Below, in pieces: positions 1 through 15,990 of a stretch of 18,456 nucleotides of DNA; the first letter of the stretch is position 1, and the number at the start of each line of letters is the position of its first letter. The position numbers and the translations under genes were made by a program. The stretch is taken from positions 1-18,456 of the IMG/VR virus record IMGVR_UViG_2713896795_000004. One strand, written 5' to 3'. The notes under the pieces are model-generated. The model was not told where the DNA came from and made no database searches. It saw only the letters and a list, made by a program, of their open reading frames with translations. The stretch comes from a virus. Its lineage: Duplodnaviria > Heunggongvirae > Uroviricota > Caudoviricetes.

Positions 1-147
1 TCAAACACTCGCAAGCTCGTATTTGATCTTAGAAATAGATAACAACCAAACTTTGCCGAATTCCTCGCTATCGCTACGGAATCCCGCAAGCGTTCTCCCT
101 TCGCTTTGCTCGATCCAGTAGGTGTAGTTCTCATTACTACTATTCAT
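1..147 (-). CDS. hypothetical small protein (48 aa), uncertain
   Basis: Manual reverse-strand translation: ATG (complement of 145..147) to TGA (complement of 1..3), MNSSNENYTYWIEQSEGRTLAGFRSDSEEFGKVWLLSISKIKYELASV. GAGG motif 7 nt upstream of the ATG. Lies in the GC-richer left flank and is below the ORF-track size cut-off. No recognisable family. Confidence 0.2.
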   Translation of the reverse strand: MNSSNENYTYWIEQSEGRTLAGFRSDSEEFGKVWLLSISKIKYELASV

Positions 148-240
148 AGTGATTCCTCAAATATTCTGGGAGTTGGACGCGGCGACGAAGTGGAACGGGG
201 CGGCGGTGTCAGTCAGTACCGAACAATAAGGAAAAAGAAA

Positions 241-582
241 ATGAAATACATACACTCAATAATAAAAGATTGGGGATACAGTCATAACTATCACGATGCC
301 GTACTAAATCACTTTCCTAATCAGGGAATGTACATCTTTGCAAGTGGTGAACTATCTTTCATGTATGACTACTTCCATCATAGGTGGACTGAAAGAACTC
401 ATACAGAAGAAATAACACGTAAACTACTTACAGAGTTCACGGAAGAAATGATCTTTCAGGAATGTACATTATATGATGCAGAATTAGTTCAGAAGGTGCA
501 AAGAGAAATACTCAAACACCACAAAGGCCAAATCACTTATATATGGATACCAAATGAGAAACCTAAAAATCACATACAATAA
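241..582 (+). CDS. hypothetical protein (113 aa)
   Basis: Track ORF 106..582 begins at a TTG in GC-richer flank. The first ATG (241) follows AAGGA with about 10-nt spacing and coincides with the switch to AT-rich composition, so the start is placed at 241. No recognisable motifs. Confidence 0.45.
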   Translation: MKYIHSIIKDWGYSHNYHDAVLNHFPNQGMYIFASGELSFMYDYFHHRWTERTHTEEITRKLLTEFTEEMIFQECTLYDAELVQKVQREILKHHKGQITYIWIPNEKPKNHIQ

Positions 583-973
583 CCCACGAGGCTTGATATT
601 CAATGACCGAGTATTAGCCAGGCGTTATGCAGTCAACCGTAAAGGCATATTACTAAATAATACTATCAAATACGATCATCCCCCTGATTACTATCTAGGA
701 CTGAATGAGGCGGAATACTTCCAATTGTCCGTAGTGATGGGTGATCTGGACGAAATAATATTCATGTCAGACTGTATAATCAATGGAGTAAAAATCATGC
801 AAATAGAAATACTAAACAATAACCCACTAAATTTTAGAGCACGTATCAATGGTGGACTAGACTTATATATTCACCATAAAGATGGAGTTGTCGCAAGTCA
901 GAGAATCCCCAATATAGAGGCTATAAAGAGCTACGTAGCTGGTGGAATCCATAAGGACGTACAACGAACATAG
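554..973 (+). CDS. hypothetical protein (139 aa)
   Basis: ATG-initiated ORF overlapping the previous gene by 29 nt, suggesting translational coupling in one operon. No recognisable family. Confidence 0.45.
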   Translation: MRNLKITYNNPRGLIFNDRVLARRYAVNRKGILLNNTIKYDHPPDYYLGLNEAEYFQLSVVMGDLDEIIFMSDCIINGVKIMQIEILNNNPLNFRARINGGLDLYIHHKDGVVASQRIPNIEAIKSYVAGGIHKDVQRT

Positions 974-1442
974 AAGAGATTAAACGCATTCTAAGGGGCG
1001 GGCAGGACGTTATAGAGGAACTATCAGAAGATGAGAAACTACAGAAGAGTATCAATAAACATACTGATTCAATCGCTAAAGCAGCGAAAGCAAAAAAAAC
1101 ACGCAAGCCAAAAGCATAAAACAAAGAAGCCTCTCTACTGGTGGTTGTCTCATGCTGTAAATCGCCTGACAAATATTCATAGCTATATTGAGCATAAGGC
1201 ACACGCACACATAAAAGCGTATCTAAGGTAATTGATCGTCCGAATAATTACGGTACTGAATTTGAGTTCTCGAAACCAACCAACTATATCGGGGGTAATT
1301 TATAGTTTCATAGTTGCAGTAGTAGTTGGTGTACTATATGATTCTTTAGACGTACAAATAAAAATCCATTGATGAAGTATTGCAGTTTCAAAAAGAGTCT
1401 CAACAACTAATTCCTCACGGTAAATAACAGGAATAAGCCACA

Positions 1443-1972
<530 letters not shown>

Positions 1973-2038
1973 TAATGGAACGGTATTAATATGTTATGTG
2001 AAAGTTTAATAGTGGATTATGACAGTACTAATTACTGA

Positions 2039-2215
<177 letters not shown>

Positions 2216-2504
2216 TAATATATGAGATACTTTGAAGACCAAAAATTCACAATGGCAGTTGCGGTAAATAAGATTATTAAGGGAGTTTATGAGATTAAGA
2301 TGTTGTCTTTATCGATATAGACTTAGCAGGTGAAGCAGGAGACAAGCTAGATATACCTCCAAAGGAGGCAGAAACTATTTAGCTACTAAATGATTTAGTA
2401 CAAATTATAAAATAATAAGAAGAGGCTAAATTTTACTATTAATATTAAAATTAACTTGTAATATTAATAGAGATTATTCATTTAAAATAGTGAGAAATAT
2501 TTAT

Positions 2505-2574
2505 TAATGAGTAATGAGTAATGAGTAATGAGTAATGAGTAATGAGTAATGAGTAATGAGTAATGAGTAATGAG
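2505..2574. repeat. perfect heptanucleotide tandem repeat (TAATGAG)x10
   Basis: Read directly: ten uninterrupted copies of TAATGAG, 70 bp, in the non-coding region about 130 bp downstream of the 3' end of the OLD-like gene. Confidence 0.95.
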
Positions 2575-2662
2575 TATATATAAATAATGGATGTAATAAA
2601 GTAGATGTCATAAATGAGTTTTCTCTATATAATGTATAATTATCAAATTATATTTATTGTAT

Positions 2663-2690
2663 TATATGCCAGTACTAGTACTGGCATATA
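2663..2690. repeat. perfect 28-bp palindrome; possible bidirectional terminator or protein-binding site
   Basis: tatatgccagtactagtactggcatata is its own reverse complement. It sits 13 bp beyond the stop codon of the minus-strand OLD-like gene, flanked by A/T-rich sequence. Confidence 0.5.
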
Positions 2691-2702
2691 TGAATTTAAT
2701 AA

Positions 2703-4549
<1,847 letters not shown>

Positions 4550-4974
4550 TTATTTAATACCATTACCAGAGAGAGAATAAAAATAATATCTTCAAAACTG
4601 TGACATATGTTGTTCTTTTATGTTGATTGTTACATGGTTGATGGTTTTGTGTGTTGACTAATAGTTTTTCAGTAATTTATTTGATTAATATGACATATGG
4701 AAAAGTCATTGCGTACTGGGGTAAATACATCTTATAGAGTATTAATATGGTTTATTACTGTGAATACTGTAATGGAGTAAATCATTTATTTTCATTAGTA
4801 ATAGGTACTCCCGAAAATCTGGGTGATCGTGGAGTTTTCGCCGCGAATTATAAAAAATATCTATGAGATTTTTTTATAAGAACACGCAATATCAATAGCT
4901 AAAAGTAATAAGCACCGAAACATATATAAAATACCAATCAATTGAAAATGAATAAAAAGTGAATAGGAAATCAC

Positions 4975-5544
4975 ATGGCAAAAAATAAAGACGATGGAAC
5001 CCGTTACACATATACGGAAATTGCCGAAAGATTTGGCGTAGAAATTAGTACCGCTTCGCGTATCTGGTCTGGAAAAGGACTGGATATTAACTGGCCTAAA
5101 AAATTAGTGGATCAGTGGTTACTAGCGAACGTAATCGAACCTATGCGTAATGGCGATGTAAAAGGAATGATTCATAAAGCTACACTACGCAAACTAGAAG
5201 CAGAAGCAGACCTGAAAGAATTAGAACTACGTCAACAATCGGGTGAACTAATTCCCGTTGCAGTAGTACAGCAAACATTATCACAATACTTCTATCAATT
5301 AAGACAAGTATTAAGAAGTATTCCCACATCAAGTTATGTTGAACTATTTGAATCACAGGACGCATTAGAATTAAAAATTAAATTACAGGATAAAATAGAC
5401 CGCCAGTTAGAAGAGATTGGCAGCTATGAATATGAGGGAACATATGAAGAACAACTATCAGAAGATGATGAAGGTACTAACGAGGGCGGCGAAATCAATC
5501 CTACCACCGAAGAAACAACTACCAGCGGAATGGGTAGAGAATAA
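4975..5544 (+). CDS. terminase small subunit (Nu1-like, N-terminal HTH), 189 aa
   Basis: N-terminal HTH-like segment YTYTEIAERFGVEISTASRIW, coiled-coil middle, acidic C-terminus. Sits immediately upstream of and overlapping the large terminase. AGGAAA before the ATG. Confidence 0.6.
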   Translation: MAKNKDDGTRYTYTEIAERFGVEISTASRIWSGKGLDINWPKKLVDQWLLANVIEPMRNGDVKGMIHKATLRKLEAEADLKELELRQQSGELIPVAVVQQTLSQYFYQLRQVLRSIPTSSYVELFESQDALELKIKLQDKIDRQLEEIGSYEYEGTYEEQLSEDDEGTNEGGEINPTTEETTTSGMGRE

Positions 5545-7345
5545 CCTAGTCTTCCCAGACGGCGAGCTACAGGGGCAAAGGGTCAAATTATTTGAGTTCC
5601 AAAAAAAGCCCTTGAATGACATAGTAAATCCCCGTATTCGTAAAGTGGTACTCATGAGTAGTGCTCAACTTCTCAAAACAACTGTACTTCAGAATAGTAT
5701 GTACTACTTCCTGGCAAATGATCCAAGTAACATGATCTTTGCGGGTGCAACTGGCGGTACTACAAGTAAGTTCCGTACTGGTAAATGGCAGGCAGTCATA
5801 GAGGCATGTTCGGTACTAAAGAATCTAGTAAGTAATAAGAATGATAAGAACTTTACTAATAACGATAAGACACAACAAAATTTAGATGGTACTTTTACTT
5901 ACTTTCTAACATTGGGTAGTAGTGCACAACTTCGCGGCCTGACAGCACCTCGCATATTTCTTGATGAAATATCCAACGTGGACGCGAGCGGGGATGAAGG
6001 CAACCCCCTGAAGCTAGCAGAACAGCGTACAAAGGCTTTTAGTAATCCCCTTATTATGTGTTGTTCTACTCCCCTTGATGAACATGACCTGATTACACAA
6101 CAGTACGAACAAAGTAATAAACAGAAGTTTTATGTACCGTGTCCACACTGTAACCACTCTCACGAATTAGTTTTTGAAAACGTTAAGTTTGACTGGAAGA
6201 TTATAGAAGGCGGTCGCCGCCGTATTCCTGATGCCGACACTGCAAGGCTAGAATGTCCAAAGTGTAGTAATGAAATCACAGAAGCCGAACGTGTACGAAT
6301 GATTCGTAAAGGAGAATGGATTGCAACAGCACCAGAGATTAAGGATATAGCTGGCTATCATGTCTCCCGCTTGTACTCTCCTATCAACTCTATCAAATCA
6401 ATTGTTGCCGACTTTGCCGAAGCACATTATACATTTGACCTGGCATCATTCTATAACAACGTATTAGGACTGCCATATATTGATAAAGAGAATAGCGAGC
6501 ATGACTTAGTATTATTAGAGAATCTAAGAGATAGTGAAATTGATATTGAAAATATACCAGATGATGTACTAGGGATCGTAATGGGCGTGGACCAGCAGCT
6601 TGATAGGTTGGAAATAAGCACACTAGGAGTAAGTGAAAAGAATCTATATGTACTTGATCACCGTAGTATCTACTCAATTGACTGTACTAAAATCGAAGCC
6701 CCAGCATGGAATAAGTTAACGGCCTTTGCAAATCATCCATTTAAAACACGTTCAGGTAAACCATTGAAGGTACTAGCCGGATTTGTCGATAGTTCAAACG
6801 GCAACGCAACCAGTACCGTGTACCGTTATTGCTCTAACTCTACTATCTTTAAACCTATCAAGGGTGGTACATCAAATACTAACCCACTATTCAAAGGTAG
6901 TACGGCTGGTGGTCACTCCCTGATTAACCTTAACCTTAACGTTAACTTAGGCAAGACTAACGTTAGACAGTTATTAAACCGTGCTGTATCAGATAATGAA
7001 AATAGTAAGGAAGTACAGATTCACTTTAGCCATTCAGTACCAGATGATTACTTTATTCAGGTTACATCAGAGAAGCGAGTAATAAAGGCTGGGGCGTGGG
7101 TATGGGTGAAGAAGATTAGTAGTGCACGTAATGAAACCTTAGACTGTTTAAACTATGCATTAATATGTTTCCAGTGGTATCTATCTAAGTTAGGTAGTCA
7201 ACCATACCGCCAGTTAAGGGAATATAACGCTAAACAAAAAGAGAAAGCAGGACTAAATAAAGAAGTAAATACAGAAGAAGCACCAACTAAGCCAACTCCT
7301 AAGCGAGTAATAAGGCCGCGTAAGGGTGGTGGTTTCTTTAAATAA
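5417..7345 (+). CDS. terminase large subunit, lambda GpA family
   Basis: Recalled similarity to lambda gpA: PAEWVENNLVFP...FEFQKKPLN versus lambda TAVEWADANYYLP...LPFQRAIMN; Cys/His cluster YVPCPHCNHSHEL...CPKC versus lambda HVACPHCGEE; GVDQQLDRLEI versus GIDSQLDRYEM. The track start at 5417 is TTG; in-frame ATGs at 5426, 5432, 5444 and 5465 are alternatives, so the start is uncertain and overlaps the terS 3' end. Confidence 0.85.
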   Translation: MAAMNMREHMKNNYQKMMKVLTRAAKSILPPKKQLPAEWVENNLVFPDGELQGQRVKLFEFQKKPLNDIVNPRIRKVVLMSSAQLLKTTVLQNSMYYFLANDPSNMIFAGATGGTTSKFRTGKWQAVIEACSVLKNLVSNKNDKNFTNNDKTQQNLDGTFTYFLTLGSSAQLRGLTAPRIFLDEISNVDASGDEGNPLKLAEQRTKAFSNPLIMCCSTPLDEHDLITQQYEQSNKQKFYVPCPHCNHSHELVFENVKFDWKIIEGGRRRIPDADTARLECPKCSNEITEAERVRMIRKGEWIATAPEIKDIAGYHVSRLYSPINSIKSIVADFAEAHYTFDLASFYNNVLGLPYIDKENSEHDLVLLENLRDSEIDIENIPDDVLGIVMGVDQQLDRLEISTLGVSEKNLYVLDHRSIYSIDCTKIEAPAWNKLTAFANHPFKTRSGKPLKVLAGFVDSSNGNATSTVYRYCSNSTIFKPIKGGTSNTNPLFKGSTAGGHSLINLNLNVNLGKTNVRQLLNRAVSDNENSKEVQIHFSHSVPDDYFIQVTSEKRVIKAGAWVWVKKISSARNETLDCLNYALICFQWYLSKLGSQPYRQLREYNAKQKEKAGLNKEVNTEEAPTKPTPKRVIRPRKGGGFFK

Positions 7346-7356
7346 GGAAAAATAAA

Positions 7357-7848
7357 ATGGCAATAGTTCGCAAAGTAACCCTAAGAGGCGATATCTTTAA
7401 AGGCGAGACTATTACATTCGACTACCCCGCAGGATCGGAAATTGATTTGATTGATCCTAACGGGGTAAAGACTTCATACACATACCCTTTCCCAGCTATT
7501 GATACTAGTAACTGGGATGCAGGTGTCTGGACTGCAATTATTAACAGTACCGTAGCGTATGGCGTACAACAATTCGAAGTAATAGATCCAACTTCAAAGG
7601 CGTCCGAATATAACGACCTGATGCAAATCATTAAAGATATTGATCAGATCATCATGGACAGAATTAAAGGCGGTGGTGTACTAAGTCAATCAATCCAAAA
7701 TAAATCATTAACATATGAAAGTAGTGAAATACTTATGAAGTTACGCCCTGTTTATGTCAGTCGTGCAAATGATTTACTTTCGGATATGAAAGGCTTTAAT
7801 ACTGGATGCCCTATTAAATCAATTACTACATTTAGGAGATCTCGTTAA
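7357..7848 (+). CDS. hypothetical protein between terminase and portal (163 aa); possible head-completion or accessory head protein
   Basis: AAGGA RBS and ATG start; its stop overlaps the portal start (TAATG). Function inferred from position only (lambda has gpW at the equivalent place). Confidence 0.45.
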   Translation: MAIVRKVTLRGDIFKGETITFDYPAGSEIDLIDPNGVKTSYTYPFPAIDTSNWDAGVWTAIINSTVAYGVQQFEVIDPTSKASEYNDLMQIIKDIDQIIMDRIKGGGVLSQSIQNKSLTYESSEILMKLRPVYVSRANDLLSDMKGFNTGCPIKSITTFRRSR

Positions 7849-9350
7849 TGTTCGGATGGAATAAAAAGAAAGTAGAAGAACCTAAACAAAAAGTTTTAGT
7901 ACAGAAGCCAGTGAAGCTAATGAAGAACAACCCTATGAAGCGTGCAATGTCTTCCCTGAATCTAGGATCTTCTAGTCCTGTTATCTCCTTTGGTTTCACG
8001 GGTGGTAATCAGGCAGGTAATATTAACGCCATCATTAACCGTACTCTACCTGTTATGGTTGCCGTGAGTCGTGAACTCTCGATTAAGAATGGTATTGTTA
8101 AGAAATATGTTTCTACTAACTCAGCAGGTGTAACAGGTGCGGATGGCCTATACATTCGTCCATGTACTCACTCTTCTGATAGTGAACAGGTTAACCAGTC
8201 AATCGATAAACAATTAGAAGATGCCTTCTATGCATGGGCGGAAGATCCTAAAGCCTTTTCACGTTGCGGTACTCTGGATATTAGTACCTTCCAACGTCTA
8301 GTAGAACGTACTCGTTCAGTAGATGGAGATTGTTTCATTCGTATTCACACTAAACCAGGTGAACTACCACAGGTTGAGATCATCGATTCAATGCGTATCT
8401 CTACCTATGAGAACCAGCTACTACCATCAGGTAACTATATTAGTAATGGTATCGAATTTGATATTAATACTAACCGTCCTGTAGCGTACTGGGTAACACG
8501 TTATAACCCTATCATGTATAACTATATGATTGGAGAACGTGAACGCGTACCAGCAGATGAAATTCTACACCTGTTTCAACAGGACTACCCAACGCAGCAA
8601 CGCGGGATACCTGATGTACATTCCGGTACTGAAAAGTTAAAAGAGCTAGAAGAGTTTATGTCAGCGGCAATTACTTCCCGTAAGGTTGCAGCGTCCGCAA
8701 TGGCATTTATCACTAATCCAGATAGTGACGATGTTCAGCTACTGACTGATGACAGTGTTTCGTACTATGATCAAGACTATCTAAATCCGGCTGCAATCGT
8801 AGAACTACAAGCAGGACAAGATATTAAAACAGTAAACCCAACTCAAACCACAGATGGAATTGATGAGTTTATTAATAACCAATTAATGATGATTGCAATG
8901 GGCTTGGATATTACAAAACAATCACTAACATCAGATACTAGTAATGCTTCATTCAGTGCAGCAAAACTGACTGATAAATTACAACAATCAACATTTAAAA
9001 GCCGCACTAATGCTTTAATTGTTTCGGTACTAAAACCTCTTTATATTGCATGGCTAAAATCTGCAATGCTAAATAGTAGTACGTTAAGCAATTTAAATTT
9101 TAGTGATTTTAATAAATTAACCCATGCACAATATGTACAGACTCGTCAAATCTCCCTTGATCCATTAAAAGACCTTCAAACCGAAGTATTAGCAATTGAT
9201 AACGGTTTAAAGAGTAAGGCAATGGTAATTTCAGAGATGGGATACGATCCTGTTATCGTCATGGAAGAGATAAAAAAGGAAAACAAGGAAAATGGAATTG
9301 AACCTGAACAAGAACCAGATGAGGGCGATCAATCTAACGCAGATCAATAA
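7848..9350 (+). CDS. portal protein (lambda gpB-like), 500 aa
   Basis: Canonical position after the large terminase, appropriate size, AGGAGA RBS. Weak recalled similarity to the lambda gpB region around ...NPAAIVELQAGQDIKTV...MIAMGLDITKQSL. Acidic C-terminal tail. Confidence 0.7.
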   Translation: MFGWNKKKVEEPKQKVLVQKPVKLMKNNPMKRAMSSLNLGSSSPVISFGFTGGNQAGNINAIINRTLPVMVAVSRELSIKNGIVKKYVSTNSAGVTGADGLYIRPCTHSSDSEQVNQSIDKQLEDAFYAWAEDPKAFSRCGTLDISTFQRLVERTRSVDGDCFIRIHTKPGELPQVEIIDSMRISTYENQLLPSGNYISNGIEFDINTNRPVAYWVTRYNPIMYNYMIGERERVPADEILHLFQQDYPTQQRGIPDVHSGTEKLKELEEFMSAAITSRKVAASAMAFITNPDSDDVQLLTDDSVSYYDQDYLNPAAIVELQAGQDIKTVNPTQTTDGIDEFINNQLMMIAMGLDITKQSLTSDTSNASFSAAKLTDKLQQSTFKSRTNALIVSVLKPLYIAWLKSAMLNSSTLSNLNFSDFNKLTHAQYVQTRQISLDPLKDLQTEVLAIDNGLKSKAMVISEMGYDPVIVMEEIKKENKENGIEPEQEPDEGDQSNADQ

Positions 9351-11154
9351 TGCAATTGATGAAGCTGATAGAACTGTAGAACTCTCCTTTGCCTCAGAAA
9401 TTCCAGTAGTACGCGACATTAAAGGGACTCTCTATAATGAGATCCTTTTATGCAGTCCTGAAAACGTAGACTTAAGCCGTCTTAATGACGGTGCACCTGT
9501 ACTAGTAGAACATGATGCAATGCGTCAAGTTGGTATAGTTGAGAATGCTCGCGTAGATATGGATAAAGTTTGCCGTGCTACTGTACGTTTTAGTGCACTT
9601 GGAACAGCAAATACTATCTTCGGTATGATCTTAGAAGGTATTCGCCCTAAAGTGTCCGTAGGTTATAACATCTTAGATTATCGTATTGATGGTAATAACC
9701 TAATTGTTTCAAAATGGGAACCCTATGAAATATCCAGTGTTTCGCAGCCAGCGGACAACTCAGTTGGGGTGGGAAGATCACTAAATAGTAATGAAGAAAT
9801 CACACTAGAGGATCTACCCAAAATGGAGCAAGAACAAAAAGAAGAACTAGTACAGGAAGTTGAAGTTATTAAGGAAGTACAGGAAGAAGAAGTACAAGCC
9901 GAAGTAATCGAAGAAGAAGTAGTAGTTCAGGAAGAATCAGTAGAAGTAGTAGAAGAACCGGAAGTAATTGAGGAAGTACAGGAAGTACAACCTGAATTAG
10001 TAGAAGAACGTTCTATTGCAATTACTGATATTCAAGAAAGCATAAATAAAGAAGTAGAAGCAAATCGTATTCGCGAACTTCAATCTATTTCTTTGGTACT
10101 AGGTGTTAGTACAGAAGAAGCAATTAACAACGGTGTAAGCGTAGAAGACTTTAAACGCTCACTAAATAAAGATAATAAATCAATTGATAAGGATATCAAA
10201 AAAATGGAAAAGAAATCTCTAATTAACGAAGGTCTACGTAGTCTAAAAGGTGAAACTCATGATCTAGAAACCTTCGAAAAAGGTGCACGCGGTTATAATG
10301 CAGACCTAAACGCTATGGTACGTTCTACCGCTGATACTACTTCTACTGTAACCGCAGCAGGTCTAGTAAAAGAAGAACTAGCAGACGCGTATATTCGTCA
10401 ACTACTCGCAGCTACTGTACTGGGCCAACTAGATGTAACTGTTTTTGGTGGCCTAGCGGGACGCGGCAATTTCTCTATCCCACGTGCTAAAGGTATGAAC
10501 CCAGCAGCTAAGTTTTACAATGAAGATGAAGCAGTATCCGACGGCTTCGAAACCTTCGATAAGATCACTCTAAAGCCTCGCATGTTCGCAGCAGGTATCA
10601 AGATCACTAAAGCAATGCTACTAAGCAACGCAGCTACCGAACGTTATGTTACCGACGAGCTATTACGCCAATGTTCTAACGGTCTAGAGTCCGCAGTATT
10701 TGCACAAATCGCTACTACTGTACCAGTACAGCAAACCGCTGTATCCGGTCAAGTATCCGAAGCAGACGTACAGAAAGCTATCGAAGCTATCTCCGCGAAA
10801 AACGTTGATATCAATCGTTGTGTTGCTATCGTGCATCCTTCTATGCTCGCTAAACTACGTCAAACCGCGGTATTGAATAACACCGCAGCAGTTGCAATGG
10901 TAGCTGGTCATCGTTATGACATGTGGCTAAACGACGAAGTACGCGTAATTGAATCTACTTTCGTAGCAGCAGATACTATTCTAATTGGTGACTTCTCTGA
11001 ACTAATTTTCGCTAACTGGAACGAAGGTCAAGAACTAGATTTTGATGATACTACTTACCGTGCAGCACAAACTATCGCTATCAGAAGTTTTCAGTACCTC
11101 GACGTAGCTATTGCACACGAAGAAGGATTTGTACTACTACAACTAAAACCATAA
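9292..11154 (+). CDS. fused prohead protease / acidic scaffold-like linker / HK97-fold major capsid protein (620 aa)
   Basis: N-terminal domain with candidate catalytic His in LVEHD (His74, nt 9511..9513) and Ser-containing segments. Acidic E/V/Q-rich repeat linker (aa 178-240). C-terminal domain with HK97-type MCP pattern: VAIVHPSMLAKL...MWLNDEVRVIESTFVAADTILIGDFSE compared with recalled HK97 gp5 IVLNPRDWHNI...MWGLPVVPT...FTVGGFD. Start may instead be the ATG at 9319. Confidence 0.7.
   Translation: MELNLNKNQMRAINLTQINNAIDEADRTVELSFASEIPVVRDIKGTLYNEILLCSPENVDLSRLNDGAPVLVEHDAMRQVGIVENARVDMDKVCRATVRFSALGTANTIFGMILEGIRPKVSVGYNILDYRIDGNNLIVSKWEPYEISSVSQPADNSVGVGRSLNSNEEITLEDLPKMEQEQKEELVQEVEVIKEVQEEEVQAEVIEEEVVVQEESVEVVEEPEVIEEVQEVQPELVEERSIAITDIQESINKEVEANRIRELQSISLVLGVSTEEAINNGVSVEDFKRSLNKDNKSIDKDIKKMEKKSLINEGLRSLKGETHDLETFEKGARGYNADLNAMVRSTADTTSTVTAAGLVKEELADAYIRQLLAATVLGQLDVTVFGGLAGRGNFSIPRAKGMNPAAKFYNEDEAVSDGFETFDKITLKPRMFAAGIKITKAMLLSNAATERYVTDELLRQCSNGLESAVFAQIATTVPVQQTAVSGQVSEADVQKAIEAISAKNVDINRCVAIVHPSMLAKLRQTAVLNNTAAVAMVAGHRYDMWLNDEVRVIESTFVAADTILIGDFSELIFANWNEGQELDFDDTTYRAAQTIAIRSFQYLDVAIAHEEGFVLLQLKP
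9823..10011. repeat. low-complexity acidic coding repeat (GAAGAA/GTAGAA-rich) inside the capsid ORF
   Basis: Translates to MEQEQKEELVQEVEVIKEVQEEEVQAEVIEEEVVVQEESVEVVEEPEVIEEVQEVQPELVEE; the DNA is built from imperfect gaagta/gaagaa units. Confidence 0.7.
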
Positions 11155-11166
11155 GGTACTTTCACT

Positions 11167-11487
11167 ATGAGGCATTTTACTAGCAATCAAATTGATTCTA
11201 CTTTTCTAAATGCCTTTGGTGAACCTATCACAATTAACGGGGCGACGTTCAAAGCTATTTTGGACAATCGCCCCGTAGTCATAGATAGCGGTACTGAAGG
11301 ACTAGTAGAAAGTACAGAAACATTTCTATCAGTGAAGACTGACGATCTAACTACTTTCAGTATCGCAATTGATTCCGAAGTAGTAGTACAGGGTACAAAT
11401 TACACTGTATACAATATCTATAATGATTTGAGCGGTATTTGTGAAGTTTACATAAGACCATCAACAATTAATAATTACGGGTGGTAA
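11167..11487 (+). CDS. hypothetical protein (106 aa); head-tail connector/adaptor candidate by position
   Basis: ATG ORF directly after the capsid gene, in the size range of HK97-like head-tail connector proteins. No motif evidence. Confidence 0.4.
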   Translation: MRHFTSNQIDSTFLNAFGEPITINGATFKAILDNRPVVIDSGTEGLVESTETFLSVKTDDLTTFSIAIDSEVVVQGTNYTVYNIYNDLSGICEVYIRPSTINNYGW

Positions 11488-11488
11488 T

Positions 11489-11884
11489 ATGGGACTATTA
11501 AGCGACGTACAAAAGACAATTAGAACCAGTCTGAATAATATCATGCCAATTCGAAAGGCAATGAATATCCAGGCAGGTAAAGATCTATTCATCTTAGTAT
11601 CAGTAAATCAGACATATTCACCAACCAACTTTGGCACACAACGCCAGACAGGAACATTCGATTTCCAATTTCTCCTAGTACCGGAACCATCAGTACAACT
11701 TCCCGCCGATTCCTACGGTACTATATTCGAATACTTCCGTACTAATACTATTAAAGAGTTTAAAGATAATAACGTCACTCTACTTTCTTATGAGTTTCAA
11801 GATAGCGAACAGGTAACAGATCCAACTACTGGCTATCAATCGTTATCGTTTGCAATAAATATTGTAGCAACTCAAAAACCATAA
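11489..11884 (+). CDS. hypothetical protein (131 aa); head-tail joining candidate by position
   Basis: ATG 1 nt after the previous stop (tightly coupled). Position-based call only. Confidence 0.4.
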   Translation: MGLLSDVQKTIRTSLNNIMPIRKAMNIQAGKDLFILVSVNQTYSPTNFGTQRQTGTFDFQFLLVPEPSVQLPADSYGTIFEYFRTNTIKEFKDNNVTLLSYEFQDSEQVTDPTTGYQSLSFAINIVATQKP

Positions 11885-11896
11885 GGAATATAGATA

Positions 11897-11924
11897 ATGA
11901 GTGATAATATTTTTACTGGTAGTG
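11897..11924 (+). pseudogene. 5' stub of a gene cut by IS2 (9 codons, MSDNIFTGS)
   Basis: AAGGAA RBS at 11883..11888, ATG at 11897, reading frame runs straight into the IS2 terminal inverted repeat at 11925. Confidence 0.35.
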
Positions 11925-11935
11925 TGGATTTGCCC

Positions 11936-12841
11936 CTATATTTCCAGACACCTGTTATCACTTAACCCATTACTGGCCCGCTGCCGTAGATATTCCCGTG
12001 GCGAGCGATAACCCAGTGCACTATGCGGATGCCATTCGTTATAATGCTCGAACGCCTCTGCAAGGTTCTTTGCTGCCGTTAACCCGTCTGGTTTGGGCAT
12101 GATACTGATGTAATCACGCTTTATCGTTTTCACGAAGCTCTCTGCTATGCCGTTACTCTCCGGACTCCGCACCGCCGTGTTCTTCGGTTCAAGTCCCAAC
12201 ATCCGGGCGAACTGGCGTGTTTCATTAGCCCGGTAGCATGAACCATTATCCGTCAGCCACTCCACTGGAGATGTCGGAAGCTCGCTGCCGAAGCGGCGTT
12301 CCACCGCTCCCAGCATGACGTCCTGTACTGTTTCACTGTCGAAGCCGCCCGTAGTGACCGCCCAGTGCAGTGCCTCACGGTCACAGCAGTCCAGCGCGAA
12401 CGTGACTCGCAGTTTTTCTCCGTTATCACAGCGGAACTCGAACCCGTCAGAGCACCATCGTTGATTGCTTTCTTTCACGGCCACTTTGCCAGTATGTGCC
12501 CGTTTCGATGGCGGTACAGCGGTTTTTCGCTCAAGCAACAGCGCATTCTGGCGCATGATCCGGTAAACACGTTTGGCATTGATAGCAGGCATACCATCAA
12601 GTTCGGCCTGTCTGCGAAGCAGCGCCCATACCCGACGATAACCATACGTGGGCAGCTCTCCGATAACATGGTGTATACGGAGAAGCACATCCGTATCATC
12701 TGAGTGACGGCTGCAGCGACCATCTTTCCAGTCATCGGTTCGTCTGAGAATGACGTGCAACTGCGCACGCGACACCCGGAGACAACGGCTGACTAAGCTT
12801 ACTCCCCATCCCCGGGCAATAAGGGCGCGTGCGCTATCCAC
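11936..12841 (-). CDS. insD: IS2 transposase OrfB (InsD), DDE integrase-like catalytic domain, 301 aa
   Basis: Matches recalled InsD sequence. Overlaps insC in the -1 frame at the AAAAAAG slippery site, so the InsCD fusion would arise by programmed frameshift. GTG start. Confidence 0.9.
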
Positions 12842-13164
12842 TTTTTTGCACGCCCATATTCAACGGCTTCTTTAAGGAGTTCATTTTCCATCGTTTTTTT
12901 GCCGAGCAGGCGCTGAAGTTCTTTAATCTGCTTCATGGCAGCAGCAAGTTCAGAGGCAGGAACGACCTGTTCTCCTGCGGCCACAGCAGTAAGACTTCCC
13001 TCCTGGTATTGCTTGCGCCATAGAAATAACTGGCTGGCTGCCACACCGTGTTGCCGGGCAACAAGGGAGACCGTCATTCCCGGTTCAAAGCTCTGCTGAA
13101 CAATAGCGATCTTTTCCTGTGTAGTACGCCGTCTGCGTTTCTCCGGTCCTAAGACATCAATCAT
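12799..13164 (-). CDS. insC: IS2 transposase OrfA (InsC), HTH DNA-binding protein, 121 aa
   Basis: Translation from the ATG at 13164 matches recalled InsC ([56 protein letters not shown]...). The track ORF extends further 5' to an upstream alternative start. Confidence 0.9.
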
Positions 13165-13256
13165 CTGTTCTCCAATGACTAGTCTAAAAACTAGTATTAA
13201 GACTATCACTTATTTAAGTGATATTGGTTGTCTGGAGATTCAGGGGGCCAGTCTAG

Positions 13257-13784
13257 AAAGGTAAATGCATCCCACGAGATTTAAAGGTTAACGAAACAAA
13301 CGCTGACTATCTTTTCCGTAAGTTCGGTGAACTTGAATCAAAACTCAACGAGCAGCGTGAGTATTACGAGGGCGTTATCTCGGATGGGAGTAAGCGTATT
13401 GCTGAACTGGAGAAAAGCGAAGAGCAACTCATCAACGAGCGTGACCATGCTGAGTCTGCTTTAGCTGATATGTACTTTGCAGCAACCGGTAACAGGCCGG
13501 AGTGGAGCAACTGGTTCGGCTTTTCAGATGCTGTCGATGCCGTGGTTGACAGAATAGCTGATTTAGAAGCTAAACAGCCATCGCCGGTAGTGCCGGATAA
13601 TGCATCAGGGTCGCTTGCTTATGCTTACAAAGAGCTTACGCCTGAGATTATGCGCGGTCATATCGCTGTATTCGAGCGATATGGAATAGCCCCAAACGAT
13701 AGCATTACCACAATTCAGGCACTGCGAATCGCGCTGGATGGTATAGAGCGGAGCAACGCCATGCTTCAGGGGAAAGGAGAGTGA
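13257..13784 (+). pseudogene. N-terminally truncated coiled-coil protein of the lambdoid early-accessory region (possibly Ea22-like), cut by IS2
   Basis: Reading frame is open from the first base after IS2 (stop TAG lies inside the IS2 end at 13254..13256) through 13784, with no start codon near the IS boundary. Coiled-coil-like LESKLNEQREYYEGVISDGSKRIAELEKSEEQLINE. The Ea22 assignment is from memory and weak. Confidence 0.45.
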
Positions 13785-13785
13785 T

Positions 13786-14301
13786 ATGGCGTTAACACAC
13801 AGCGAACTCTGTCAGATTGCGTACAAGTTCCTTAAGCGCAACGGGTTCAAGGTTTGTTTTCATGACCGCTTTATAGCTGTAACCAGTACCGGAGAACAGC
13901 CAGATGCTATGGGATTCAGAAATTCAGCATCATGCCTGATAGAGGCGAAGTGTTCTCGTGCTGACTTGTTGGCAGATAGAAAAAAGCGTTTTCGTAAAAA
14001 TCCGTCTCTTGGAATGGGCGACTGGCGATTCTTTATTAGTGAGCCGGGGATTATTTCAATTGAGGATTTACCACCTGGCTGGGGATTACTTCACGTTGTT
14101 AACGGAAGAGTACGGAAAGTACATGGGTGGCCAAAGGGCAATTGCTGTTGGGGTAATCCTGACGATAAGCCATTTACTGGAAATAAGCAGGTTGAATGCG
14201 ATTACATGTTATCTGCATTAAGGCGCATGGAGTTGAGAGGGCACCTTAATGAAATATATGACGGTGTAATTGTTAATAAGAAAGAAGGAAACGCGGCATG
14301 A
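13786..14301 (+). CDS. hypothetical protein with PD-(D/E)xK-like nuclease motif (171 aa)
   Basis: AAAGGAGAG RBS, ATG 1 nt after the previous stop. Motif ...EQPDAMGF...(12 aa)...LIEAKCSRADL resembles the PD...(D/E)xK core of restriction-endonuclease-fold proteins. Family not assigned. Confidence 0.5.
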   Translation: MALTHSELCQIAYKFLKRNGFKVCFHDRFIAVTSTGEQPDAMGFRNSASCLIEAKCSRADLLADRKKRFRKNPSLGMGDWRFFISEPGIISIEDLPPGWGLLHVVNGRVRKVHGWPKGNCCWGNPDDKPFTGNKQVECDYMLSALRRMELRGHLNEIYDGVIVNKKEGNAA

Positions 14302-15137
14302 CCACTATTACCAAAGAGCGACTGCTGACAATCAAGCAGTGGCGCGAAACATACGGACCTGGTAGCAACGTTGTACTGCCAGCAGAAGAAGCGGAAGAAC
14401 TGGCACGAATTGCTCTGGCATCGCTGGAAGCAAAACCAATAGGTGCTTTCCACATTGCAGAACAGCAGGTCGATGGCACAAGTGACTACATCAAGGATGG
14501 GGAGTGGCCTATTGATAACGGGATAATTGAAGTATACGCCGCTCCGCCAGTGCCGGTAGTACCTGGGGAAATTGCTGATGATTTAATGGAGAAATTACCG
14601 AAAAGTGATGCATGGGCTAATGGGTTTCGTGGTGGCTGGAACGCCTGCCGCGCAGTCATGCTTCAGTCCGGAAACTTTCGGAAAATCCCGGAAGCGTCAA
14701 CCAGCTCTCCGGTAACTCCGCCTCTTTTGCCTGGTGGTTTCACCATTGAGGATGCGAAGGAGTTACATGAAGACCTGGTTCGCAGCCACATAAGCCAGGC
14801 TTTAAGTGGCGAAAAGATGAAAAAGAAAGATCGCGAGGCTGATTTGCGCTGGATTCATGGCGTAATAGTTCAGGCTGCGTGGTTTGTAAAGGCATCACTG
14901 GAGCAGAATGCACTATCGGGCAACTCTCCGGTAACTCCGGATAGTTGGATAAGCTGTAGTGAGCGAATGCCGGAAGAAACGGGTGACATTATTGTTGTTT
15001 CGGATGGCATTGTAATGTCAGGGATTTCTTATTCTCGTCGTGACGGGTTCTATATGGCCGCATTGGAGTACGACGACGACGAACCAATTGACGGTGTAAC
15101 CCACTGGATGCCGCTGCCAGAACCGCCGCAGGGGTGA
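14298..15137 (+). CDS. phage protein with C-terminal DUF551-like domain (279 aa)
   Basis: ATGA start/stop overlap with the previous gene. C-terminal SERMPEE...VTHWMPLPEPP matches the recalled DUF551 signature (ER[ML]PE ... W-x-PLP-x-PP) common in lambdoid early-region accessory genes. Confidence 0.55.
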   Translation: MTTITKERLLTIKQWRETYGPGSNVVLPAEEAEELARIALASLEAKPIGAFHIAEQQVDGTSDYIKDGEWPIDNGIIEVYAAPPVPVVPGEIADDLMEKLPKSDAWANGFRGGWNACRAVMLQSGNFRKIPEASTSSPVTPPLLPGGFTIEDAKELHEDLVRSHISQALSGEKMKKKDREADLRWIHGVIVQAAWFVKASLEQNALSGNSPVTPDSWISCSERMPEETGDIIVVSDGIVMSGISYSRRDGFYMAALEYDDDEPIDGVTHWMPLPEPPQG

Positions 15138-15203
15138 AATGATGCTTGGCCTGAAGTATTTTATGTAATTGGTATTGCTATATTTTTATCTGGGGATAAA
15201 CGA

Positions 15204-15446
15204 ATGTTCTCTCTGATTCAACGTGGTCAGATATACACCGATAGCGCTGGCTATCCAGTAAAAATCATTCGTAGTACTGATCACTCAGTATTCTTCAAGA
15301 GGATGGATGGCTATCCTGGAAGAGTGTGCATCAGAAAATTCAATAATTTATTCGAACACATTGATCACAGAGAATATCACCAGATCCTGGCTGAAACAGA
15401 GCAGGAGAACCATCTGAAAAAATTACGTGCCATGCAAAGGAGATAA
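15204..15446 (+). CDS. hypothetical lambdoid early-region protein (80 aa)
   Basis: ATG ORF in the position occupied by ea-type genes in lambda; no motif evidence. Confidence 0.45.
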   Translation: MFSLIQRGQIYTDSAGYPVKIIRSTDHSVFFKRMDGYPGRVCIRKFNNLFEHIDHREYHQILAETEQENHLKKLRAMQRR

Positions 15447-15526
15447 ACCGGTAAAGGTGTTCGCGATAAAGGTGAATATCGGCAATGAATAACAATCCTC
15501 GAACTCGCGGGGATTTCTTTTATCTG

Positions 15527-15553
15527 AACTCGCTACGGCGAGTTTTGTTTTAT
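15527..15553 (+). terminator. putative intrinsic terminator
   Basis: 7-bp stem AACTCGC / GCGAGTT with 4-nt loop TACG, followed by TTGTTTTAT. Confidence 0.35.
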
Positions 15554-15564
15554 GGAGATGATAA

Positions 15565-15732
15565 ATGCACTTCCGAGTCACAGGTGAATGGAATGGAGAG
15601 CCATTCAACAGAGTTATCGAGGCAGAGAACATCAACGACTGCTATGACCACTGGATGCTGTGGGCGCAGATAGCACATGCAGACGTAACCAATATTCGAA
15701 TTGAAGAACTGAAAGAACACCAATCCGCCTGA
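15565..15732 (+). CDS. small hypothetical protein (55 aa), same size and spacing as the small ORF just upstream of xis in phage lambda
   Basis: Manual translation MHFRVTGEWNGEPFNRVIEAENINDCYDHWMLWAQIAHADVTNIRIEELKEHQSA. GGAGA RBS 7 nt before the ATG; ends 39 nt before xis. Below the ORF-track size cut-off. Confidence 0.45.
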   Translation: MHFRVTGEWNGEPFNRVIEAENINDCYDHWMLWAQIAHADVTNIRIEELKEHQSA

Positions 15733-15747
15733 TGGCGGCTTTTTCTT
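15725..15747 (+). terminator. putative intrinsic terminator overlapping the stop of the 55-aa ORF
   Basis: CCGCC-TGAT-GGCGG hairpin followed by CTTTTTCTT. Confidence 0.35.
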
Positions 15748-15771
15748 GCGTGTAATTGCGGAGACTTTGCG

Positions 15772-15990
15772 ATGTACTTGACACTTCAGGAGTGGAACGC
15801 ACGCCAGCGACGCCCAAGAAGCCTTGAAACAGTTCGTCGATGGGTGCGCGAATGCAGGATATTCCCTCCTCCGGTTAAGGATGGAAGAGAGTATCTGTTC
15901 CACGAATCAGCGGTAAAGGTTGACTTAAATCGACCAGTAACAGGTAGCCTTTTGAAGAGGATCAGAAATGGGAAGAAGGCGAAGTCATGA
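15772..15990 (+). CDS. xis: excisionase Xis (lambda type), 72 aa
   Basis: MYLTLQEWNARQRRPRSLETVRRWVRECRIFPPPVKDGREYLFHESAVKVDLNRPVTGSLLKRIRNGKKAKS matches recalled lambda Xis. Overlaps the int start as in lambda. Confidence 0.95.
   Translation: MYLTLQEWNARQRRPRSLETVRRWVRECRIFPPPVKDGREYLFHESAVKVDLNRPVTGSLLKRIRNGKKAKS

What the first reader, a model, noticed from the sequence alone, without database searches (positions are those of the whole stretch)
4975..11924. Tail-less AT-rich packaging/head module next to a lambda-type int/xis/attL: satellite-like or hybrid element
From terS to the IS2 boundary the window encodes only DNA-packaging and head functions (small terminase, GpA-type large terminase, 163-aa unknown, portal, protease-capsid fusion, two connector-sized proteins). 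The next gene is cut after 9 codons by IS2, and no tail, lysis, replication or repressor genes are seen. The module is strongly AT-rich, unlike the roughly 50% GC int/xis arm and host DNA. It is also transcribed in the same direction as int, whereas in an integrated lambda the head genes run opposite to int. Two readings are plausible: a capsid-forming satellite (cf-PICI-like) that borrows helper tails, or the stump of an AT-rich prophage joined to a lambda remnant by IS2-mediated deletion or inversion.
Basis: partly seen in the sequence, partly recalled or inferred. Interest (0 to 1): 0.7.

Follow-up and report, generated by a model that had tools for sequence, protein, structure and literature searches.

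The report
IS2-cut half of an ordinary prophage
The "tail-less" head-gene block is not a phage satellite but the front half of a common, complete type of E. coli prophage, cut in its first tail gene by the mobile element IS2; the neighbouring lambda-type integrase belongs to a second, unrelated prophage.

Summary
Positions 4975-11924 encode terS, a GpA-type terL, a 163-aa connector, a lambda-type portal, a protease-capsid fusion, a gpFII-like joining protein and a 131-aa protein. The next gene stops after 9 codons, exactly at an IS2 end. GC is 39% here against 46-54% to the right.

The satellite reading fails. The window comes from E. coli HMLN-1, contig LFKC01000009. Upstream, the element starts with a large serine recombinase integrated in the 5' end of msyB. 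All 22 relatives with downstream sequence continue from the same 9 codons into a full siphovirus tail and lysis module of about 17 kb. The closest subtype sits at the same msyB/mdtG site in many E. coli genomes.

IS2 has no target duplication (TAGTG versus GAAAG). It joins msyB-side DNA head-to-head to the int arm of a separate lambda-like prophage at attλ/ybhC. This is the signature of exchange between two inverted IS2 copies.

The strain's own paper lists a 17.5-kb, 37% GC "prophage" at the start of contig 10. A tail protein with an adjacent accession number lies on another contig. So the tail half is probably still in the genome.

The assembly is from 101-bp reads. A real inversion of about 300 kb and an assembler mis-join therefore cannot be separated. 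The finding is ordinary and of low interest.

The parts
1..2702 (+). Early-region ORFs of the AT-rich prophage (113, 139 and 125 aa), function unknown. The element continues about 4.2 kb upstream of the window to a serine recombinase and attL in msyB.
   Evidence: There are no Pfam, PHROG or PADLOC hits. The region is partly homologous to the early regions of L001 and L014. The upstream context comes from L003: the recombinase lies at L003 5582-7444 (Resolvase + Recombinase + Zn_ribbon_recom; phrog_95, 1e-51) and attL lies in msyB.
2703..4523 (-). OLD-family ATPase/TOPRIM nuclease, a P2 Old-like defence cargo gene of the prophage.
   Evidence: Pfam AAA_15 9e-38 and OLD-like_TOPRIM 2.6e-14. The best PADLOC model is 'Old', 1.5e-74. 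The region is 98.5% identical at nucleotide level in the closest relative L014 and absent from the L001-type relatives.
4832..4846 (+). Family-invariant GC-rich motif GAGTTTTCGCCGCGA, about 130 bp upstream of terS. It is a candidate cos site or late-control site (inferred).
   Evidence: The motif is invariant in 8 of 8 family members, inside an otherwise diverged AT-rich spacer. Its function was not tested.
4975..5544 (+). Small terminase subunit.
   Evidence: phrog_57, 1.6e-18. The homologue is annotated as small terminase in L001.
5444..7345 (+). Large terminase, lambda GpA type.
   Evidence: Pfam GpA_ATPase 5.9e-50 and GpA_nuclease 5.2e-42. phrog_15, 8e-132.
7357..7848 (+). 163-aa head-tail joining / connector protein.
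   Evidence: phrog_5774 'head-tail joining', 6e-18. It is conserved in all relatives.
7848..9350 (+). Portal protein, lambda family.
   Evidence: Pfam Phage_portal_2, 2.9e-61.
9292..11154 (+). Prohead protease / scaffold / HK97-fold major capsid fusion protein.
   Evidence: Pfam Phage_capsid covers residues 358-617. NCBIfam NF045541 matches the N-terminal part at 1.6e-35. phrog_617 matches the full length. The PDB major capsid protein 8gta matches at 7.7e-7.
11167..11487 (+). gpFII-like head-tail joining protein.
   Evidence: Pfam Phage_attach, 1.4e-7. phrog_82 'head closure', 4e-10.
11489..11884 (+). 131-aa conserved protein between the head and tail genes. It is probably a neck or tail-completion protein (inferred from position).
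   Evidence: No family hit. It is present at the same position in all relatives.
11897..11924 (+). First 9 codons plus 1 base of the first tail gene. In relatives this gene encodes a 1,211-1,233-aa protein with a major-tail-protein-like N-terminus fused to an S74 tail-fibre C-terminus.
   Evidence: These 28 nt are identical to the start of the L019 tail gene, and homology ends exactly at 11924. The L001 homologue begins MADQIFTGS.
11925..13255 (-). IS2 (IS3 family), 1331 bp, intact, with its transposase genes on the - strand. The flanks are TAGTG and GAAAG, so there is no 5-bp target duplication.
   Evidence: Sequence. It is 96.1% identical to K-12 IS2A and ends at the annotated IS2A terminus. 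Pfam HTH_Tnp_1 and rve match the called gene.
13256..17126 (+). pL-distal arm of a separate lambda-like prophage: a 5'-truncated ORF, Ea22-like, DUF551, DUF4222, xis 15772-15990, int 15968-17038, and the attL core at 17112-17126.
   Evidence: 97-99% identical to lambda, HK106, JEP4 and E. coli A26.
17173..18456 (+). Host gene ybhC, on the gal side of attλ.
   Evidence: Annotated as ybhC in every E. coli hit. ybhJ follows it in L002.

Best explanation
Positions 1-11924, together with about 4.2 kb upstream of the window, are the left 16.1 kb of an AT-rich temperate siphovirus-type prophage of about 33.5 kb.

- **Integration.** The prophage is integrated by a large serine recombinase into the 5' end of msyB. 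Its late operon normally runs terS, terL, portal, capsid, connectors, major-tail/fibre fusion, tail tube, tape measure, baseplate/J-like fibre, lysozyme, and ends at mdtG.
- **Disruption.** In strain HMLN-1 an IS2 lies 28 bp into the first tail gene.
- **What lies beyond IS2.** The DNA on the far side of that IS2 is not part of this element. It is the xis/int/attL arm of a different, lambda-like prophage at attλ, next to ybhC.
- **Origin of the join.** The two prophage fragments meet only through IS2 and in head-to-head chromosomal orientation. This is what exchange between two inverted IS2 copies gives, one copy in each prophage. The exchange is either a real inversion of about 300 kb or a collapse of the two copies by the short-read assembler. 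I put these at roughly even odds; they cannot be separated from the window.
- **Tail and lysis half.** This half is most probably still in the genome, at the start of contig 10.
- **Consequence.** In either case the head module is an ordinary phage head operon whose tail genes have been cut off from their promoter. It is a defective or split prophage, not a satellite and not a designed hybrid.

**Shown:** gene content, the break point, the absence of a target duplication, the two integration sites, and intact relatives with tails.
**Inferred:** the second IS2 copy, the location of the tail half, and the defect in tail production.
For: **(1) Break point.** Homology to the intact relatives stops exactly at the IS2 end, 28 nt into their 1,211-aa tail gene.

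**(2) Relatives all have tails.**
- All 22 relatives with more than 1 kb of downstream sequence continue into tail tube, tape measure, pb9-like distal tail protein, J-like fibre and lysozyme. These are L001, H1, L004-L011, L015-L017 and L018-L027.
- None is tail-less.

**(3) Same integration site.**
- The closest subtype is 91.6% identical at nucleotide level and is listed in 110 blocks of the index.
- It ends at mdtG with the att core CTTCTTCAAGCGT. This is the same core as at the HMLN-1 attL in msyB.

**(4) No target duplication.** The IS2 flanks are TAGTG and GAAAG. The native lambda-side sequence in strain A26 reads ...TTTTCTGAAAGGTAAATG across the insertion point.

**(5) Chromosomal geometry.**
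- The left host flank is opgC-opgG-opgH-yceK-msyB in K-12 orientation, at about 1.11 Mb.
- The right flank is ybhC-ybhJ in reversed orientation, at about 0.80 Mb.
- The position of ybhC in K-12 is from my knowledge of the K-12 map.

**(6) The source paper, PMC4552563, Table 2.**
- ROD-9: contig 9, 317,516-333,578; 16,062 bp; GC 36%; labelled 'Prophage'. This is the present stump.
- ROD-10: contig 10, 1-17,530; 20 genes; GC 37%; labelled 'Prophage'.
- The tail half of relatives measures 17.0 kb, 37.9% GC and 21 genes.

**(7) A tail protein from the same genome.**
- A 184-aa distal-tail protein, KMV59863.1 / WP_049595125.1, lies on a 213,842-bp contig.
- It is 96.7% identical to the homologue in the closest subtype.
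- Its accession follows the window's own proteins, WP_049595101-108, by 17.
Against: - Contig 10 could not be fetched. The location of the tail half rests on size, GC, gene number and accession adjacency, not on sequence.
- The paper gives 'tRNA-Lys-TTT' as the insertion site of ROD-10. This does not fit an mdtG-proximal end.
- The second IS2 copy has not been seen.
- The assembly is from 101-bp paired reads with SPAdes 3.0.0, and IS2 is multi-copy in most E. coli (4,924 of 5,426 genomes, median 4 places). A contig that runs through IS2 is not trustworthy evidence of physical linkage.
- All head ORFs are full length. Sequence decay therefore gives no independent sign of long-standing defectiveness.
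Confidence: 0.9

Rival explanations
1. The join is purely an assembly artefact. On this reading HMLN-1 carries two simple IS2 insertions in inverted orientation, one in the first tail gene of an otherwise contiguous msyB-site prophage and one in the lambda-like prophage. SPAdes left the collapsed IS2 by the wrong exit. The physical prophage would then be heads-IS2-tails. This is nested inside the best explanation and differs from it only on whether the join is physical.
For: - The assembly used 101-bp paired-end MiSeq reads and SPAdes 3.0.0.
- IS2 is 1331 bp, longer than typical inserts, and is multi-copy in most E. coli.
- Contigs 9 and 10 both begin inside prophage regions at position 1. This is expected if they stop at an unresolved IS copy.
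- No complete E. coli genome shares this IS2/lambda-arm join.
- Intra-replichore inversions of 300 kb are uncommon (general knowledge).
Against: Assemblers usually break at such repeats rather than guess. A contig that passes through IS2 may therefore rest on real long-insert pairs or on differences between the copies. Nothing in the window contradicts a real inversion.
Confidence: 0.45
2. The module is a true deletion stump. On this reading the tail, lysis and attR part of the AT-rich prophage has been lost from the genome through IS2-mediated deletion, and ROD-10 and the KMV59863 protein belong to a different element.
For: - The window shows no tail genes.
- The paper's insertion site for ROD-10, tRNA-Lys, does not match mdtG.
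- Contig 10 was not inspected.
Against: - A simple deletion cannot join the msyB side and the ybhC side head-to-head.
- ROD-10 matches the expected tail half in size, GC and gene number.
- The tail protein's accession number is adjacent to the window's proteins, and its divergence (96.7%) is in the same range as theirs (91.5-99.8%).
Confidence: 0.07
3. The module is a capsid-forming satellite (cf-PICI-like) that makes its own heads and borrows helper tails. Alternatively, it is a functional hybrid that uses lambda int/xis.
For: - Within the window the module has terS, terL, portal, protease-capsid and head-tail joining genes and no tail genes.
- The head ORFs are intact.
- Its gpFII-like joining protein is of the lambda type, as is the neighbouring prophage.
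Against: - It carries a truncated tail gene.
- All 22 relatives are tailed phages.
- It has a serine recombinase and no AlpA, MerR or primase-replicase.
- Its terminase and portal are the GpA/lambda type, whereas cf-PICI packaging operons are the HK97 type with HNH (bioRxiv 10.1101/2025.02.11.637232; PMC10085698).
- Its right boundary is an IS end, not an att site.
- The lambda int arm belongs to a prophage at its own attL with its own host flank.
Confidence: 0.02

Closest known systems
Uncharacterised AT-rich serine-recombinase prophages of Escherichia, annotated by PGAP only. Examples: the yegD-site prophage in NZ_CM151386.1 (L001) and the msyB/mdtG-site prophages in GCA_049929455.2, GCA_000190855.1 and others (L018-L027).
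   Same: - Gene order from terS to the 131-aa gene is identical.
- Nucleotide identity is 86-92%.
- The att core in msyB is the same for the closest subtype.
- The OLD nuclease cargo is the same in the closest relative.
   Different: - The HMLN-1 copy is interrupted by IS2 28 bp into the first tail gene.
- In the assembly it is followed by DNA of another prophage instead of its own 17-kb tail and lysis half.
IS-mediated prophage disruption or chromosomal inversion between inverted IS copies, and the equivalent repeat-collapse mis-joins in short-read assemblies.
   Same: - An intact IS without a target-site duplication.
- Flanks that come from two distant loci.
- A head-to-head orientation of those flanks.
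   Different: The reciprocal junction has not been seen, so a physical inversion is not proven.
[quoted passage not shown] EcCIEDL933).
   Same: Within the window there is a packaging and head operon with head-tail joining genes and no complete tail gene.
   Different: - It has a serine rather than a tyrosine integrase.
- It lacks an AlpA/MerR regulator and a primase-replicase.
- Its terminase and portal are lambda GpA type, not the HK97/HNH type.
- It has a tail-gene stub.
- It has no attR.
- Its relatives are full phages.
Phage lambda and lambdoid phages such as HK106 and JEP4.
   Same: - The right arm (13256-17126) is 97-98% identical to lambdoid xis/int/b-region DNA at attλ.
- The head module shares only family-level homology with lambda: GpA terminase, lambda-family portal and gpFII.
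   Different: - The head module is not lambdoid at nucleotide level.
- The best cultured-phage TerL match is 37% (phage DCP80), and the best capsid match is about 31% (VP882).
- It has a different integrase type and a different integration site.

Membership tests
cf-PICI | No tail or holin genes. These are 'forbidden components' in SatelliteFinder (PMC10085698). | tested here: not met
   The 9-codon stub of a major-tail/fibre gene lies at 11897-11924 and is identical to the start of the 1,211-aa tail gene of relatives. All 22 relatives carry full tail modules and a lysozyme.
cf-PICI | A PICI-type left arm: integrase plus AlpA/MerR-type regulator plus primase-replicase. | tested here: not met
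   The left end is a large serine recombinase. No AlpA, MerR or primase domain was found in any early ORF with Pfam or PHROGs. There is only a weak RHH hit and an HNH-like ORF.
cf-PICI | An HK97-type packaging operon (HNH, terS, terL, portal, protease, capsid, adaptor, connector). | tested here: not met
   The terminase is lambda GpA type and the portal is Phage_portal_2. The HNH-like ORF lies in the early region, not beside terS. The capsid does have the HK97 fold.
cf-PICI | A discrete island of about 10-15 kb bounded by att sites. | tested here: not met
   attL lies in msyB. The right boundary is an IS2 end. There is no copy of the att core in the window.
cf-PICI | Forms small capsids that package island DNA and acquire helper tails. 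| not testable with these tools
   This needs induction, electron microscopy and transduction experiments.
Msy​B-site AT-rich serine-recombinase siphovirus-type prophage (unnamed family) | A conserved head operon in the same order with high identity. | tested here: met
   Nucleotide identity is 86-92% over 6.9 kb to L001, L004-L006, L014 and L017-L025. Protein identity is 91.5-99.8%.
Msy​B-site AT-rich serine-recombinase siphovirus-type prophage (unnamed family) | Integration by a serine recombinase into the 5' end of msyB with the core CTTCTTCAAGCGT. | tested here: met
   attL in L003 and attR in L019, L021 and L025 share the core and the K-12 break point.
Msy​B-site AT-rich serine-recombinase siphovirus-type prophage (unnamed family) | A tail and lysis module contiguous with the head module. 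| tested here: not met
   In the HMLN-1 assembly the module is interrupted at 11924 by IS2. The tail half is probably on contig 10, but this was not inspected.
IS2 (IS3 family) | A 1331-bp element with IS2 termini and the insC/insD genes. | tested here: met
   It is 96.1% identical to K-12 IS2A and ends at the annotated IS2A terminus. rve and HTH_Tnp_1 domains are present.
IS2 (IS3 family) | A 5-bp target-site duplication, as expected of a simple insertion (property recalled from knowledge of IS2). | tested here: not met
   The flanks are TAGTG and GAAAG. They derive from two different prophages.
Lambda-like prophage at attλ (right arm only) | Lambda-type int and xis next to the att core and ybhC. 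| tested here: met
   The arm is 97-99% identical to lambda, HK106 and E. coli A26. The core is at 17112-17126.

The most novel reading that the evidence does not exclude
The IS2-interrupted prophage keeps its recombinase, candidate cos site, terminase, all head genes and a gpFII-like joining protein intact. If the join is an assembly artefact and the prophage can still excise, it might behave as an accidental capsid-forming satellite. It would release DNA-filled tail-less heads that become infectious only by acquiring tails from a related resident or infecting phage. That would be a snapshot of how cf-PICI-like elements could arise from phages through loss of tail expression.
Probability: 0.04. 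Interest if true: 0.55.

Novelty: new member of a known kind. Interest (0 to 1): 0.12.

Why it matters
- **As a caution.** A head-only gene block next to an integrase looks like a capsid-forming satellite when read in an 18-kb window. The wider context shows an IS-split prophage: the flanking contig, intact relatives and the strain's own paper all point that way. The join may even be a short-read assembly artefact.
- **For the strain.** At least one of the HMLN-1 'prophage regions' (ROD-9) is half of a disrupted phage. Either a chromosomal segment of about 300 kb between attλ and msyB is inverted, or contig 9 is mis-assembled.
- **On the phage family.** This AT-rich family has a serine recombinase, integrates at msyB or yegD, and sometimes carries an Old nuclease. 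It is widespread in Escherichia but has no cultured or characterised member in the phage collection searched. That is a modest descriptive gap, not a surprise.

Tried and rejected
**Satellite reading.** Rejected on four defining features of cf-PICIs; see the membership test.

**Simple IS2 insertion into one element.** Rejected for the assembled sequence, for two reasons:
- The flanks differ (TAGTG versus GAAAG).
- The flanks derive from two prophages at two chromosomal sites.

**Simple deletion between the two prophages.** Rejected because the host flanks are joined head-to-head.

**Attempts to fetch the other half of the prophage from HMLN-1.**
- The tail-tube representative P0003 came from another sample.
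- The tail-fibre search returned no representative on a 213,842-bp contig.
- The listed cluster members showed no tail-tube protein on a 364,558-bp contig.

**Searches for close relatives and shared junctions.**
- Complete E. coli genomes contain no close copy of the head module. Only two hits were found, both at about 87%.
- No complete genome shares the IS2/lambda-arm junction. The ancestral or reciprocal junction therefore could not be read from relatives.

**Searches that found nothing.**
- No tRNA in the window or in the relatives. This leaves the paper's 'tRNA-Lys' insertion site for ROD-10 unexplained.
- No Rfam family in the window.
- No nucleotide-level relative of the head module among 50,697 phage records. 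Only distant protein matches appeared.

Full report
**Observation**

The region holds seven co-oriented genes.

| Coordinates | Product | Evidence |
|---|---|---|
| 4975-5544 | small terminase | phrog_57, 1.6e-18 |
| 5444-7345 | large terminase, lambda GpA type | GpA_ATPase 5.9e-50, GpA_nuclease 5.2e-42 |
| 7357-7848 | 163-aa protein | phrog_5774 'head-tail joining' |
| 7848-9350 | portal, lambda family | Phage_portal_2, 2.9e-61 |
| 9292-11154 | 620-aa protease/capsid fusion | see below |
| 11167-11487 | gpFII-like protein | Phage_attach |
| 11489-11884 | 131-aa protein | no family hit |

- In the fusion protein, the C-terminal part is an HK97-fold capsid domain. The N-terminal part matches NCBIfam 'prohead protease/major capsid protein fusion' at 1.6e-35.
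- A further ORF starts at 11897 and is broken after 28 nt, exactly where a 1331-bp IS2 begins. The IS2 spans 11925-13255 and is 96.1% identical to K-12 IS2A, ending at the annotated terminus.
- The module is 39.3% GC and the early region to its left is 34.3%. The lambda-like arm is 46.1% and ybhC is 53.6%.
- The head genes and xis/int are on the same strand.

**Where the window comes from**

- An exact look-up of the portal protein places the window on contig LFKC01000009.1 (364,558 bp) of GCA_001077955.1.
- This is E. coli HMLN-1, a 'translocating' clinical isolate (PMC4552563).
- It was sequenced with 101-bp paired-end MiSeq reads and assembled with SPAdes 3.0.0 into 59 contigs.
- Table 2 of that paper already lists this region as ROD-9: contig 9, 317,516-333,578; 16,062 bp; GC 36%; 'Prophage'.

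**The left end of the element**

- Ten kilobases upstream of the window (L003) the host genes are opgC, opgG, opgH, yceK and msyB.
- They are followed at once by a large serine recombinase (Resolvase + Recombinase + Zn ribbon; phrog_95, 1e-51) and small unannotatable ORFs.
- Comparison with K-12 shows that the element is inserted in the first codons of msyB and rebuilds them: MTMYATLEE becomes MYFYATLEE. The shared core is CTTCTTCAAGCGT.
- The element therefore starts about 4.2 kb before window position 1 and runs 16.1 kb to the IS2. This matches ROD-9.
- There is no tyrosine integrase, AlpA/MerR regulator or primase-replicase.

**What the head module belongs to**

- The module is 87% identical to a 33-kb prophage inserted in yegD in two complete E. 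coli genomes. There it is followed directly by these genes:
  - a 1,233-aa tail-fibre-domain protein;
  - a tail tube protein;
  - a tape-measure-sized protein;
  - a fibronectin/J-like fibre;
  - a lysozyme;
  - a GIY-YIG nuclease.
- IMG/VR relatives show the same continuation. So do contigs found through the tail-tube protein and the 184-aa distal-tail protein.
- In total, 22 of 22 relatives with enough downstream sequence continue into this tail module. None stops after the 131-aa gene.
- The closest subtype (L018-L027) is 91.6% identical over capsid-to-131-aa, and its 184-aa protein is listed in 110 blocks of the index. It ends next to a 408-aa MFS transporter that aligns to K-12 mdtG, with the same att core.
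- It is thus the same phage type at the same msyB/mdtG site, but intact.
- Its first tail gene begins ATGAGTGATAATATTTTTACTGGTAGTG|GTTTTAAACTC. The window is identical up to the bar and then becomes IS2.
- In relatives that gene encodes a major-tail-protein-like N-terminus (phrog_158) fused to an S74-type tail-fibre C-terminus.

**The join**

- IS2 is flanked by TAGTG on the left and GAAAG on the right, so there is no 5-bp target duplication.
- The right flank is the pL-distal arm of a lambdoid prophage: a truncated ORF, Ea22-like, DUF551, DUF4222, xis and int. The arm is 97-99% identical to lambda, HK106, JEP4 and the prophage of E. coli A26. The exact lambda att core sits at 17112-17126, followed by ybhC and ybhJ.
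- In A26 the native sequence across the insertion point is …TTTTCTGAAAGGTAAATG….
- The left host flank is in K-12 orientation at about 1.11 Mb. The right host flank is in reversed orientation at about 0.80 Mb (the position is from knowledge of the K-12 map; the orientations are).
- Left-of-A joined head-to-head to left-of-B through an IS is the signature of exchange between two inverted IS2 copies, one in each prophage. A deletion cannot produce it.
- This also explains why the head genes run 'the same way as int': the two arms belong to different prophages.

**Real or artefact**

- The same four flanks and one collapsed IS2 node would appear in the assembly graph in two cases. In one, the chromosome carries a real inversion of about 300 kb. 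In the other, it simply carries two inverted IS2 insertions.
- IS2 (1331 bp) is longer than ordinary inserts for 101-bp libraries. It occurs in 4,924 of 5,426 complete E. coli genomes, with a median of 4 places.
- Contigs 9 and 10 both begin at position 1 inside 'prophage' regions, ROD-7 and ROD-10. This is expected if they stop at an unresolved IS copy.
- I cannot tell the two cases apart from the data available and put them at roughly even odds.

**Where the tails are**

- ROD-10 (contig 10, 1-17,530; 20 genes; GC 37%) matches the tail and lysis half of the closest relatives (17.0 kb, 37.9% GC, 21 genes).
- ROD-9 plus ROD-10 gives 33.6 kb, the size of the intact relatives.
- The 184-aa distal-tail protein cluster contains a member, KMV59863.1 / WP_049595125.1, found on a single 213,842-bp contig.
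- The window's own proteins are KMV60455-60462 / WP_049595101-108.
- That member is 96.7% identical to the closest-subtype homologue. The window's head proteins are 91.5-99.8% identical to theirs, so the divergence is in the same range.
- This is good circumstantial evidence that the tail half is in the same genome. The contig itself could not be fetched.
- The paper's 'tRNA-Lys-TTT' insertion site for ROD-10 remains unexplained. No tRNA occurs in the window or in relatives.

**Mechanism**

- The element is a temperate, cos-type (inferred from the GpA terminase) siphovirus-like phage.
- Its late operon has been severed 28 bp into the first tail gene.
- Head genes can still be transcribed from upstream signals. 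Tail and lysis genes are separated from them by IS2, and possibly by 300 kb and an inversion.
- The prophage should therefore be unable to make infectious particles. If the inversion is real, its attL and attR are no longer in an excisable configuration.
- All head ORFs are full length relative to relatives, so the disruption is probably recent.

**Comparison with known systems**

- Against cf-PICIs, four defining features tested here are not met. The cf-PICI definition is 11 core components, with tails and holins forbidden and an HK97-type packaging operon (PMC10085698; bioRxiv 10.1101/2025.02.11.637232).
- The head module is not lambdoid at nucleotide level. No phage record matches it.
- The best cultured-phage TerL match is 37% (DCP80). 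The best capsid match is about 31% (VP882).
- It is a member of a widespread but uncharacterised Escherichia/Enterobacterales prophage group known only from automatic annotation.

**Verdict**

This is an ordinary IS2-split or IS2-interrupted prophage, abutting the int arm of a second prophage. It is not a satellite or a functional hybrid. The apparent hybrid join may be a short-read assembly artefact. Interest is low.

Noticed in passing
window 2703-4523 (- strand): An OLD-family ATPase/TOPRIM nuclease lies between the early and late regions of the prophage on the opposite strand. Its best PADLOC model is P2-type 'Old' (1.5e-74). It is 98.5% conserved in the closest relative (L014) but absent from the yegD-site relatives. 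It is likely a phage-borne defence cargo gene.
   Followed up: partly
window 2505-2576 and 2663-2690: There is a perfect tandem array of a 7-nt unit (TAATGAG, 10.3 copies). A perfect 28-bp palindrome (TATATGCCAGTACT/AGTACTGGCATATA) lies just 3' of the OLD gene stop. The function of both is unknown; the palindrome may be a terminator or a binding site.
   Followed up: no
window 4832-4846: The GC-rich motif GAGTTTTCGCCGCGA is invariant in 8 of 8 family members within an otherwise diverged AT-rich spacer, about 130 bp upstream of terS. It is a candidate cos site or late-gene control site.
   Followed up: partly
L003 5562-5583 (about 4.2 kb upstream of window position 1): The serine-recombinase phage integrates inside the first codons of msyB and supplies a replacement N-terminus: MTMYATLEE becomes MYFYATLEE. 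The att core is CTTCTTCAAGCGT. Intact relatives have their attR at the same site, next to mdtG.
   Followed up: yes
L019 2526-6161 (relative); stub at window 11897-11924: The first tail gene of this phage family encodes a protein of about 1,200 aa. It combines a major-tail-protein-like N-terminal domain (phrog_158, about 33% identical to the separate tail tube protein) with an S74-chaperone tail-fibre C-terminus. The phage therefore has two tail-tube-like genes.
   Followed up: partly
window 13256-13470: IS2 also truncates a lambdoid b-region ORF about 38 bp after its start. The homologue is E. coli A26 locus L028 5966-6511. The lambda-like prophage is therefore IS2-disrupted as well. Its remainder is probably ROD-7 at the start of contig 9 (35.4 kb).
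   Followed up: partly
PMC4552563 Table 2 (ROD-10, contig 10, 1-17,530): The paper gives 'tRNA-Lys-TTT' as the insertion site of the 37% GC region that otherwise fits the missing tail half. No tRNA is found in the window or in relatives, and the expected neighbour is mdtG. This is unexplained.
   Followed up: partly
L003 8418-9020 and 8194-8346 (upstream of the window): The early region encodes an HNH-endonuclease-like 200-aa protein (phrog_959, 4.6e-11) and a 50-aa protein with a weak ribbon-helix-helix (CopG) match. No recognisable repressor, replication or excisionase genes were found in this phage family's early region of about 9 kb.
   Followed up: no
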